A stretch of 64,000 bases of DNA from Octopus vulgaris (taxonomy: Eukaryota). Of this stretch, positions 5,856 to 26,139 are shown one piece after another. The notes under the pieces were generated by a model. It did not search any database and was not told the origin of the DNA. It was given only the letters and a program-made list of their open reading frames with translations. The stretch is from assembly GCA_951406725.2 (NCBI GenBank), contig OX597819.1:93868001-93932000 (forward strand), written 5' to 3'. The position numbers and the translations under genes were made by a program. Every line of letters starts with the position of its first letter. Positions within the stretch are counted from its first letter, which is position 1.

Positions 5856-6597
5856 AACTTACTTGGAAAAGGATGCGTGGCATTCAATCATATAATAATA
5901 TAAATAATATATAAATATATGCATATATACATACATATATGTACATACCTACAACATGTATATATACATGCATATATGGGTATAGGATATCAAAAAAACG
6001 TTGAATACAATGAGAAACGAAAGTATAGAAACTAAAATATAGAAATGAACTTTCTGTTGAACAATAAAAAAATCAGAGAAACGAGACACACAACATAAAG
6101 AATATTCCCATTCATCAGTTGTCCCTGTTTCATCTACTCTGCATTCCAAAGGCAAGGACAAGATGTGACTTCGTTGAAACAGTCCTTCCTGCAAAGCAAA
6201 AATTAAATAAAATTTGGGATTTTTTGTGGAGGGTGAAAGTGGTAACAAGAACAGGACAGTGAGAACAAAACAGTAACAACAAATGGTGAGGGCTGTTAAG
6301 CCAAGACGATAGAAAAGTTAATATGAATGCTAGGAAGTTGAGCTTATGAAGGAGATAGTATAAGCACGTTTTTTCTTTACGAAGGTAGTGGGCAGAAGAT
6401 AGATTCTCTTTTGTCATGTGCCAGTGGCGAGAGAGTCGAGGAGGAGGAGTGAGAGAGAGGAAATGGGGAAGAGGAGAGGAGATGAATAGGGAAGGGTTGG
6501 AAAGAAACTTTGGTATTGTGAGACTAATAACCTGGTACAGAACTCAATATACATATATTTCAGAATAAAATGTTAGCTGAGTATAGAGTGGTAATAA

Positions 6598-6932
6598 GGA
6601 AAAGAGATGACAAAGGAATAAATCATTATCTTATGAACTTCATTAGTTCACAACTGTTTCTGCAACAAGATGCAGTGAACTTATAGTTGAGTGCCTGAAT
6701 GACACCTTATAGCTTCATCAGAGCCTCGAATGTGAAGTGCAATCCATTTGGGGAAGAATTACAAACGTAATGCTTTCCCAAATAAATTGCACTTCAAATC
6801 TGAGGTTCTGATGAAGTTATATGGTGTTATTCAGACACCCAACTATGAATACATTACAACTTATAGCAGAAACAGCTGTAAGGTAATGAAGTTCATAATA
6901 TAATCATTTATTTCTTTGTCATCTCTCTTTCT
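6598..6932. mobile_element. ~335-bp fold-back (palindromic) element made of two inverted hammerhead-motif units; probably PLE pseudo-LTR derived
   Basis: 6598-6756 is the imperfect reverse complement of 6773-6932; each arm carries CTGATGA...GAAACAG(C/T)TGT. Confidence 0.75.
6802..6886 (+). ncRNA. type I hammerhead ribozyme-like motif (long stem II, palindromic stem III)
   Basis: CTGATGA at 6808-6814; stem II AGTTATA.../...CTTATAGC; GAAA 6869-6872; CAGCTG; cleavage triplet GTA at 6878-6880; stem I degenerate in this copy. Confidence 0.55.
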
Positions 6933-9282
6933 TTTATATATATAAATTTTTGTCTTTATGCTAAGTTATCCATAAATACAATGTAGCATTAAACTAAAGT
7001 ATTACTCAATACTTTTCTGTTGAGTGCATATTCATTAAATTTTTTTGTAAGACGTGAGGTCAGTTTGAGCAAACAAGCTGAAACTGTGAAGTCATTGTCA
7101 CTTCGCTTAAACGTGGTTGTGTGGTAAGTAGTTTGCTTTCTAACCACATGATTCTGGGTTCAATCTCACTGTATATATATATAAACCTTTGGCAAGTGTT
7201 TTCTACTATAACCCCAGGCCAGCCAAAGCCATGTCAGTGAAGTTGGTAGGCAGGAACTGAATGAAGGGCATTCTATTAGTCTCTTTTGCTGAACTACTAA
7301 GTTACCGGAGACATAAACACGCCAGCATCTGTTGCCAAGCAATGGTGGGAGACAAACACAGACACAAAGACACACACACATACTATATACATATATGATG
7401 GGCTTCTTTCAGTTTCCATCAACCAAATCCACTCACAAGACACTTACCCGAGGTGCCACACAATGGGACTGAACCCAGGGCCATGTGACTGGCAAGTAAG
7501 CTTCTTAACACATGGCCACACCTATGTACGTGTCTGTGTGTGCATATATCATACTAAACACTAATCGCTTGATGAAAATTAAAATCAATATAATCACCCC
7601 TCAAGTAAAGCTACTTGTGTGATATTGCACTGACACCATGATATGAAATACAGTTCACCCCTTTTACAGAATATATTTACAACACATTAATAATTCAGAA
7701 TGAAATAATACTTAAGGTCCCTAAAAGAAACCATTTCACTTCTGGACTGACACAGTCTTTTTGATGTTGAATGGTTTCAAAGAAATGAATTTTAAATTAT
7801 TAATTAGATGGATTATATACAACTCAAATCACAGATATTTCTTCTTTATGATTCATAGAAATAACAATGATTGTAATAATGTAAAGCTGAAGAATATCAT
7901 AAGACTTTTTCAGAAAAATAATTACTCATGTGTTAATAATCATTTGTTTCAATGTTATTATTGTACCACAAGATAACAGTCTAAAGATATCTTCTGTAAT
8001 ACTGTACAGTGTTGGAAACAAAACATTGATAATACCACAGTAATTTATTAATTGAACTTGCTGCTAAGAACGCATTATGGATGTTACTCAGTCTATTTTA
8101 CTTTAGCCCTTCTTAATAGCTGGCTTTTATGTAGAATCTCTGTGATGGTGTATAGACAGAATCATTAAAGTGTTAAAAAAAATGCCTTTCAGTCTTCCTT
8201 CTGGCTCATTAGCTTCTGAGTTCAAATTCTATCAAAACCAGCTTAGCTTTACATCCCTCAGACATTGACAAAATAAAAGCGCAAATGTGGGTGTATGCTT
8301 AAGAAGCTTGCTTCACAACCACATGGCTTTCAGTTCAGTCCTAGTGTGTGGTACCTTGAGTGTGTCAAGAAGACCCATATGCCACAGCAGATTTCTTACT
8401 GGTGCTGATACCACAAAAAAAAAAGCACTGGTGCTGGTTTCACAAAAAAAGTACCCAGTACATTCTGTGGAGTGGTTGATGCTAGGAAGGGCATCCTGCC
8501 ATGAAAAGCATGCCAGAGCAGATAATGGAGCCTGGTGCAGCCCCTGGCTTTACAAGCTCAGGTCAAGCCATTCAACCCATGCTAGTATAGAAACAGATAT
8601 TCTTCAGCCAACTAGCATAGCTAGAATGTGTGCCATTTAGGGCAGCCCTTCTGTCTGTCACGCCCAGACCCCACAAAAAACACATATCGCCTACAGCAGA
8701 CCCAAAAGTGGTGCCACTTTAAAAGTGCTTCCTGGGGCAGACCGCTCTACCCCCCCCCCCAGTAATATTAGTGCTTCAGCCACATGGCTGAAATGAAGAA
8801 AAGAATAAAAGAATATGTGTGTGTGTATGTGTGTTAATTGACATATGCAGTATTAAATTGATCTATATCTACTCTATTGACAAATATGGCAAGAGAGTGT
8901 ATTTTTCTGAATTATGGATACTAAGGCAAGTATATATTTTTGTGTACGTATACGTGTACATGTGAAGGTGAGTGTGTTATCTTCTTGTTTGGACATGACA
9001 TGGTAGATGTAAACAAGTGTCACCATCATATAAGCAATCTACCATGGAAACATTTCTGGCCATGGGGAAATATCACCTTACTTAGAAATGAGTAGAAGTT
9101 GGTGACAGGAAGAGCATCCCAGCTGTAGAAAATTTGCCTCAATGAACTCCATCCACCTATGTGAGCATGGTAAAATGAATATTAAAATGATAATAGTACA
9201 GTTTACTGCATCTGTGTATATATTTCTCTAGTTACATTTTCAATTTGATTAATGTGGCTCATTGGGATTTTAACTTAATTTG

Positions 9283-25216: not shown

Positions 25217-26139
25217 TTGGGTAATCCCATAAATAATGCTGTTTTATCAATTACATGAACTAAAAGTTGGAGGGAACGGAATAAACTATCTGCATCAACT
25301 TGCTATAAAAGCAGGTAGTAATTTTACCTTGTACTTATTCTTAGTGCAAGTTTTGAAGATTGCAGTTCGATTTTAACAGTTATTTTTTCAAAGTTATAAT
25401 GAAAGTGATAAAGGAGCATATTCGGTATATTTTATTTTATAAAGTTCAATAAAGACAACAGTACAACAGAAAATGTGAGGAATATAAATATGGGGATTGG
25501 ACAATAAGCATAAGCCAGTGTCAATGGTGATTCCAGAAATTCTGAGCCAAAAATTACAGCCTTGAAGATGAGCCTCATCCTGGAAGATTTGTAGAGCTCA
25601 ACGAGGATGCCCTGCAAACCCTGGTGGAGCAAAATTCCATCATAACTGTTTAGAAACTAGCAAAGAAGCTTGGATTTGGCCATTCAACCATTCATTGACA
25701 TCTGTGCTAGAAGAAAAACAACCATCTTTGGTTTCAAAACAAAAGGTGCTCTTCCATCAGGATAATGCTCAGCCATATACAATGAGGATGACATTCCAAA
25801 GGCTGGAGCAGTTTGAATGGGAAACGATGCTCTTCCCACTATATTCAACAGACATTGGTCCATGTGATTATCATTTATTCAGCAGTCTTCAAAATCATTT
25901 GGACGGAAAATATATGAATTCTGTAGATATGGTCAGAACAGTAATGGAGGAGTGTTTTTCATCACAGACAAGTGAGTTTTGGAAGTGAGGGGGTGGGGCT
26001 TGCAAGTCTACCAGGTAGATGGAAGAACATTGTAGAAAATGAAGGACGGTATATTTTAGATTAAAAAAGAACTTTGTTTATATTAATTTTGAAAAATAAC
26101 AGAAGTATTAAAAAATGCATTATTTATGGGATGACCCAA
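25217..26139 (+). mobile_element. mariner (DD34D-type) transposon relic, internally deleted, with TIRs and TA TSD
   Basis: TA|TTGGGTAATCCCATAAATAATGC ... GCATTATTTATGGGATGACCCAA|TA; transposase remnants FHQDNAQP and YSTDIGPCDYHLF. Confidence 0.9.

What the first reader, a model, noticed from the sequence alone, without database searches (positions are those of the whole stretch)
6598..6932. Non-coding 335-bp palindrome built from two inverted hammerhead-ribozyme units
Seen: two ~160-bp arms are imperfect reverse complements around a ~16-nt centre. Each arm, read outward from the centre, has GAGG(C/T)T-CTGATGA-AG(C/T)TATA...CTT(A/G)T(A/T)GC-A-GAAAC-AG(C/T)T-GT. This gives a hammerhead core with a long stem II and a palindromic stem III (ACAGCTGT). 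Established: Penelope-like elements carry minimal type I hammerheads with palindromic helix III in their pseudo-LTRs and often form inverted structures. Inference: this is either an extremely truncated PLE insertion or a separate non-autonomous fold-back ribozyme element, which would give a hammerhead whichever strand is transcribed. The + copy has an intact core and a GUA site and is sense to the Cav3 pre-mRNA.
Basis: partly seen in the sequence, partly recalled or inferred. Interest (0 to 1): 0.72.

Follow-up and report, generated by a model that had tools for sequence, protein, structure and literature searches.

The report
Inverted Penelope retrotransposon stubs, hammerhead
The mirror-image sequence is two shortened copies of one abundant old repeat joined head to head in an intron of a calcium-channel gene; the repeat is likely the end of a Penelope-type jumping gene, and both of its hammerhead self-cutting RNA motifs are mutated and predicted to be inactive, so this is likely an ordinary insertion scar.

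Summary
The palindrome is real (arms 6596-6762 and 6767-6933, 82% complementary, 4-nt centre), but the insert is larger and lopsided: 6507-6933. Both arms are 5'-shortened copies of a repeat with over 1,000 candidate places in this genome. The family has two fixed 3' ends about 95 nt apart; here the left arm has the long end (tail), the right arm the short one. Of 30 copies taken in genome order, 19 are solo and 11 have an inverted partner, at varying junctions, so there is no fixed fold-back family. Rare longer copies run on into a reading frame homologous to the N-terminus of Hydra-clade Penelope-like elements (PLEs). The family's own RT and endonuclease were not found. The majority sequence has a Hydra-type type I hammerhead layout with an unusually long helix II. 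At this locus the + copy keeps its core but has a broken helix I, the - copy has GUG at the cut site, and the antisense arm is predicted to sequester either. This inverted-plus-tail layout is published, and this scan noted it before on other DNA. Verdict: new member of a known kind, low interest.

The parts
6507..6763 (-). Left arm: 5'-truncated copy of the repeat, family positions 230-486, with the tail; 90% identical to the family majority sequence
6507..6595 (-). Tail (optional 3' extension of about 95 nt, a few bases short here); holds the position of the likely ORF start codon at 6516-6514, mutated in this copy
6645..6725 (-). Hammerhead motif of the left arm; core CTGATGA 6721-6715, GAAA 6660-6657; G at position 17 (6649) and a C/A mismatch in helix I, predicted inactive
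6763..6766 (.). Head-to-head junction, 4-nt loop, no foreign spacer (family positions 230 and 225 meet with a 3-nt overlap)
6761..6933 (+). Right arm: 5'-truncated copy, family positions 225-397, ending at the short 3' end and followed by a TA run; 90% identical to the majority sequence
6804..6884 (+). Hammerhead motif of the right arm: helix I 6804-6807/6881-6884 (broken by G/G), core 6808-6814, extra A 6815, helix II 6816-6823/6860-6867 (7 of 8 pairs), extra A 6868, GAAA 6869-6872, palindromic helix III 6872-6879, would-be cut after 6880

Best explanation
The insert at 6507-6933 is two 5'-shortened copies of one abundant old repeat joined head to head, one with and one without the family's optional tail, and it is likely a single insertion made by a Hydra-clade Penelope-like retrotransposon. 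Shown: family membership, the two 3' ends, variable junctions, solo majority, continuation of long copies into a Hydra-type N-terminal reading frame, hammerhead layout in the majority sequence. Inferred mechanism: the element's RT/GIY-YIG protein nicked TA-rich DNA and began reverse transcription inside the RNA at one of two sites past the hammerhead (short end, long end), as shown in vitro for a lizard PLE (PMC11167929); both cDNAs stopped about 45 nt 5' of the core and were joined head to head. The hammerhead is a passenger of the pseudo-LTR. The copies then decayed (10% each from the majority sequence, 18% from each other). At this locus neither ribozyme is predicted to cut; the likely RNA product in the Cav3 pre-mRNA is a long hairpin deep in an intron.
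For: Arm: 1231 first-look candidates, 40 scored at 82-88%; 194 exact matches of a 23-mer, 0 for the reversed control. 5' gradient: the 232 nt upstream of the arm have only 48 candidates. Two 3' ends: 60 short, 62 long, 25 other of 147 copies. 26 of 85 loci hold head-to-head pairs; by eye 18 of the 26 pair a tailed with a short end, and one has two tails (14 of the 26 were fetched by the tail). Genome-order sample: 11 of 30 paired, 19 solo, junctions spread over family positions 227-456 and 227-320. 119 of 147 ends are followed by alternating purine-pyrimidine runs against 42% of random places. Copies L086, L091, L095-L100 and L107 run past the tail into a reading frame; the L136 piece matches the N-terminus of an intact 718-aa PLE protein of this genome at 15 of 29 identical, pairwise E 9e-9. 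That protein shows DKT, CxCX5C and RW(R) motifs, listed as Hydra traits in PMC8557442 section 11, and published Hydra proteins begin with the same kind of stretch. That intact family also has its hammerhead just upstream of the ORF and inverted partners. Published Hydra hammerheads have an extra base on both sides of helix II and a palindromic helix III, and Penelope-13_HM has an inverted 5'-truncated copy with a hammerhead on each strand.
Against: No RT or endonuclease sequence of this family was found. The one promising link (L144) failed: none of the other 29 loci of that RT family, nor 18 of them extended, carried this repeat, and they end in a different hammerhead. None of the 30 genome-order loci had a PLE ORF within 1.5 kb. 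The ORF link rests on about 50 codons in roughly a dozen decayed copies; a protein-database search with that 45-aa piece found nothing, and Pfam gave no significant hit for the 718-aa protein (look-alikes and homologues carry HTH_animal and GIY-YIG). No target-site duplication is visible; the left end abuts another repeat. No compensatory changes in helices I-III among copies, and helix II (88%) is no better kept than loop II (87%).
Confidence: 0.8

Rival explanations
1. The source was a short non-autonomous PLE derivative (pseudo-LTR plus ORF start only), moved in trans by a Hydra-clade protein. Same insertion chemistry and same verdict for this locus, different source element.
For: No RT/EN of the family found; shared sequence fades into TG/TA-rich DNA about 300 nt upstream of the arm in all long copies seen; L097 holds ORF start followed directly by another pseudo-LTR copy; animal retrozymes are proposed to derive from PLE pseudo-LTRs (bioRxiv 10.64898/2026.07.22.740005, abstract and parts 1-2 of 5 read).
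Against: No tandem arrays of the unit among the loci seen; the intact Hydra family also has a long low-complexity 3' region where copies could be cut short; 5' ends are graded, with no single unit length.
Confidence: 0.13
2. A separate fold-back element that moves as a fixed 335-bp palindrome with a hammerhead on each strand.
For: A centre-spanning query found 8 other loci with nearly symmetric palindromes among 40 scored.
Against: The 5 of those 8 examined have different junction positions and sequences; 19 of 30 genome-order copies are solo; the insert is asymmetric; no shared ends or target-site duplication.
Confidence: 0.03
3. The insertion has been taken over by the host: the + hammerhead cuts the Cav3 pre-mRNA, or the hairpin acts on splicing or RNA editing.
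For: The + core, GUA and palindromic helix III are intact and sense to the gene; the hairpin is very stable.
Against: Helix I is broken; hammerhead pairs have probability 0.0 in every context folded; an inverted pair gives one ribozyme per strand, so no cis dimer; the element lies about 20 kb and 14.5 kb from the nearest recognised exons; its divergence (10%) is at the family median of 10.8%; an intact core is common, 28 of 87 copies.
Confidence: 0.04

Closest known systems
Insertion units of endonuclease-positive Penelope-like elements: inverted 5'-truncated pseudo-LTR with a tail on one side (PMC3846280, passages read; PMC8557442, passages)
   Same: Head-to-head arms, tail at one end only, tail reaching into the first codons of the ORF, strong 5' truncation, microsatellite targets.
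   Different: No ORF between the arms; tail about 95 nt against the published 30-40 bp; no target-site duplication seen.
Hydra clade of PLEs (PMC8557442 section 11 and supplementary files S1, S2 and protein sequences)
   Same: N-terminal reading frame of the same type, TA-rich targets, type I hammerhead with an extra base on both sides of helix II and a palindromic helix III.
   Different: Loop II is 36 nt and folds as an extension of helix II, against 3-10 nt in the listed Hydra hammerheads; the flanking extra bases are A and A; the motif differs from that of Hydra-1_Obim; RT and endonuclease of this family not recovered.
Minimal PLE hammerheads (PMC4209133, parts 1-2 of 4 read)
   Same: 7-8 bp helix II, 4-5 bp helix I, extra base between 9 and 10.1, G10.1-C11.1, palindromic helix III; the paper reports pairs 100-700 bp apart on opposite strands and low in vitro activity needing dimers.
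   Different: Extra base also between 11.1 and G12; long loop II; C at position 4 in 30 of 98 copies.
Animal non-LTR retrozymes (bioRxiv 10.64898/2026.07.22.740005)
   Same: Non-coding, type I hammerhead, related to PLE pseudo-LTRs.
   Different: Retrozymes are direct tandem repeats; here copies are solo or inverted and of variable length.

Membership tests
EN+ PLE insertion unit | 5'-truncated copies with fixed 3' ends | tested here: met
EN+ PLE insertion unit | Inverted 5'-truncated partner, head to head, variable junction | tested here: met
   26 of 85 loci; 11 of 30
EN+ PLE insertion unit | Optional tail on one end, reaching into the ORF start | tested here: met
   tail longer than published
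EN+ PLE insertion unit | RT and GIY-YIG ORF in the source element | tested here: inconclusive
   only the N-terminal ~50 codons found; no RT/EN link
EN+ PLE insertion unit | Target-site duplication (optional in published cases) | tested here: inconclusive
   none visible; left end abuts another repeat
Hydra clade | N-terminal region leading to the RWK motif | tested here: met
   homology up to, but not including, a clean RWK
Hydra clade | DKT motif, CxCX5C linker, endonuclease without CCHH | not testable with these tools
   these parts of this family were not recovered; DKT and CxCX5C seen only in the homologous intact family
Hydra clade | Insertion into (TA)n | tested here: met
   119 of 147 ends followed by alternating purine-pyrimidine runs, background 42%; TA, CA and TG runs were pooled
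Type I hammerhead (family majority sequence) | CUGANGA, GAAA, NUH and three helices | tested here: met
   the constrained fold is 3.5 kcal/mol above the minimum (-22.6 against -26.1)
Type I hammerhead (family) | Covariation in helices | tested here: not met
   no compensatory double changes among copies; little power in an old decayed family; two other PLE families of this genome keep the layout with different helices (by eye)
Type I hammerhead (this locus) | Intact helix I and cleavable triplet | tested here: not met
   + copy G/G in helix I; - copy G17
Type I hammerhead | Self-cleavage | not testable with these tools
   needs an in vitro assay
Fixed fold-back (MITE-like) element | Shared centre and both ends across copies | tested here: not met
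Non-LTR retrozyme | Direct tandem repeats of a hammerhead unit | tested here: not met
   no arrays among the loci mapped; loci were about 3 kb and not a full census

The most novel reading that the evidence does not exclude
The family is a non-autonomous, pseudo-LTR-only offshoot of Hydra PLEs whose source copies carried a working long-arm hammerhead variant (52-nt helix II arm, A/A at its base, C4 in one lineage) kept under selection across several source lineages. The nine non-CpG core positions change half as often as the rest (48 of 924 against 1658 of 14855; trinucleotide-matched p 0.002), which would make this family a test case for what hammerheads do in PLE movement.
Probability: 0.12. 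Interest if true: 0.4.

Novelty: new member of a known kind. Interest (0 to 1): 0.14.

Why it matters
As most likely read, it matters little: one more inverted PLE stub, of a family not found by motif search in the supplement of PMC8557442 (long sequence runs there were cut). Its use is as material: hundreds of copies with two 3' ends and variable junctions can test how PLEs make head-to-head insertions, and the excess conservation of the core bears on the open question of what PLE hammerheads are for.

Tried and rejected
Rfam scan: no hammerhead family matched. ORF listing near the element gave nothing relevant. A family search for PF26215 was not possible, the family is not in that library. 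Protein-database search with the 45-aa ORF start: no hit. Pfam on the intact PLE protein: nothing significant. L144 seemed to link the repeat to an RT; rejected after searches showed that RT belongs to a sister family with another hammerhead. RT or endonuclease fragments near L011, L028 and L030 were taken as chance neighbours; only L030 was extended and it gave no further link. The idea that extra bases on both sides of helix II are new was rejected: published Hydra hammerheads have them. A split of copies by U4/C4 found no linked diagnostic position. A hoped-for C-G/G-C swap in loop II was not supported. Sequencing runs: no RNA holder listed; only contigs were laid, which cannot show ends or editing. 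No covariance model was built. Paper searches found no paper on this family; supplements of the bioRxiv preprint and of PMC4209133 were not seen and could list it. Three duplicate loci plus two more were dropped before the count (85 of 90); copies were de-duplicated by a shared 40-mer.

Full report
Observation. The inverted repeat is real: arms 6596-6762 and 6767-6933, 167 nt, 82% complementary, 4 nt apart, folding at -186.3 kcal/mol with z -24.95. Rfam reported no hammerhead among 33 matches. The gene context holds: an exon about 20 kb upstream matches T-type calcium channels best and further channel exons lie on + from about 21.4 kb. Contigs of two public runs bridge the centre.

The arms belong to an abundant repeat. 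One arm has 1231 first-look candidates, the 40 scored at 82-88% identity apart from itself; a 23-mer has 194 exact matches and its reversed control none. A majority sequence of about 500 nt was built from 32 copies. Copies differ from it by 11.6% on average (104 copies). The 232 nt upstream of the arm have only 48 candidates, and 5' ends are spread along the family. 3' ends fall at two places: 60 short, 62 long and 25 elsewhere of 147 copies. 119 of 147 such ends are followed by alternating purine-pyrimidine runs, against 42% of random places in the same loci.

The true insert is 6507-6933. The left arm, on -, covers family positions 230-486 and carries the tail; the right arm, on +, covers 225-397 and does not. 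26 of 85 loci show such head-to-head pairs, with junctions from position 25 to 461; by eye 18 of the 26 pair a tailed with a short end (14 of the 26 were fetched by the tail). In the first 30 exact matches in genome order, 11 are paired and 19 solo. A query across the centre found 8 other nearly symmetric palindromes among 40 scored loci; the 5 examined have other junctions. A fixed fold-back element is therefore not supported. The layout is the published one for PLE insertions: an inverted 5'-truncated copy and a tail on one side (PMC8557442 passages; PMC3846280 passages), and opposite-strand hammerhead pairs 100-700 bp apart are reported in PMC4209133.

Link to a PLE. A few copies run past the tail into a reading frame that starts inside the tail. 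A protein search of the genome with 45 of these residues pulled out, at weak E-values, a young family with long ORFs; one intact 718-aa ORF (L137) has RT-like and GIY-YIG-like motifs, DKT and CxCX5C, its look-alikes and homologues carry HTH_animal and GIY-YIG, though Pfam here gave nothing significant. The ORF start of our family matches it at 15 of 29 residues, pairwise E 9e-9. DKT, CxCX5C, RWK and (TA)n targets define the Hydra clade (PMC8557442 section 11), and published Hydra proteins start with the same kind of stretch. Against: I found no RT or endonuclease of this family. The apparent link in L144 failed on testing, and the 30 genome-order loci had no PLE ORF within 1.5 kb. Whether the source was autonomous is open.

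The hammerhead. The majority sequence has a 4-bp helix I, CUGAUGA, an extra A, an 8-bp helix II extended by a 36-nt folded loop, an extra A, GAAA, a palindromic helix III and GUA. Extra bases on both sides of helix II and a palindromic helix III are listed for Hydra hammerheads (PMC8557442 file S2); their loops II are 3-10 nt, so the long arm is the distinctive part, and a sister family here has one too. Of 87 copies spanning the motif, 28 keep the core and 9 keep core and helices. The nine non-CpG core positions change less than the rest (48 of 924 against 1658 of 14855; 30 of 511 against 1085 of 8593 in copies not fetched by the arm; trinucleotide-matched p 0.002). That hints at selection in the source elements, but it rests on nine positions in related copies, helix II is not better kept than loop II, and there are no compensatory changes. 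Position 4 is C in 30 of 98 copies, with TG 58, CG 18, CA 10 at positions 4-5, which suggests that some source elements had C4; U4C lowers activity in vitro yet is tolerated in a viroid (PMC3088659, passages).

This locus. The + copy has an intact core but a G/G mismatch at the third pair of helix I; the - copy has G at position 17. All hammerhead pairs of the + copy had probability 0.0 in the arm alone, in the whole insert and in three transcription prefixes; such folding ignores tertiary contacts, dimers and proteins, and even the majority sequence does not fold as a hammerhead at its minimum. In a head-to-head pair the antisense arm is made first on either strand, and only one ribozyme lies on each strand, so the dimer that PLE hammerheads are thought to need (PMC4209133) cannot form in cis. 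The lizard PLE hammerhead cut only with protein present and was not needed for insertion in vitro (PMC11167929, parts 1-2 of 4 read).

Mechanism and verdict. Shown: family, ends, junctions, ORF start, motif damage. Inferred: nicking of TA-rich DNA, reverse transcription from two internal sites, early stop, head-to-head joining, decay. Confidence 0.8 for truncated ends of a Hydra-clade PLE, 0.13 for a non-autonomous derivative moved the same way, 0.03 for a fixed fold-back element, 0.04 for a host role. Earlier notes of this scan reached the same reading for other palindromes in this and other genomes; they are unchecked and were used only as a lead to the Hydra clade, which I then tested. New member of a known kind; interest 0.14.

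Noticed in passing
window 5890-6507 (-): A second, more abundant repeat (4788 first-look candidates, 86-90% identity) begins exactly where the tail ends; it is 5'-shortened here, looks tandem in some loci, and has a GAAAC shortly before a CUGA(A/U)GA half core with no GAAA after it. No PLE ORF within 1.5 kb in 14 loci.
   Followed up: partly
L137:2010-4163 (-), G000:C18: Intact 718-aa Hydra-type PLE ORF of a young family with many near-identical copies, most frameshifted at one place near residue 500; its short hammerhead has U/U at the base of helix II and an inverted partner.
   Followed up: partly
L187, L190, L193 (downstream of the ORF end): An old sister PLE family whose ORF is linked to a hammerhead with a long helix II arm, a 3-bp helix I and a palindromic helix III.
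   Followed up: partly
L144:6240-6304 (-): This family's tail is fused directly to the zinc-linker region of the sister PLE, possibly a template switch between families.
   Followed up: partly
family positions 342-416; window 6878-6883: The cleavage triplet overlaps a GUAAG donor-like word, followed by a pyrimidine run and CAG about 75 nt on, before the ORF start: possibly a short intron. Seen by eye only; not shared by the two other families.
   Followed up: no
L230, L231, L233, L239, L243, L245: A subfamily with a different loop II that closes a longer perfect inner hairpin; contigs laid show a strong depth peak at 6860-6896 with loose ends of this type.
   Followed up: partly
window 25572-25985 (+): An open frame that reads like a mariner-type transposase fragment (recalled resemblance; no Pfam hit).
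   Followed up: no
L095:2050-2190; L102: Copies of the family lie beside exons of other genes (a small-GTPase-like exon in L095).
   Followed up: no
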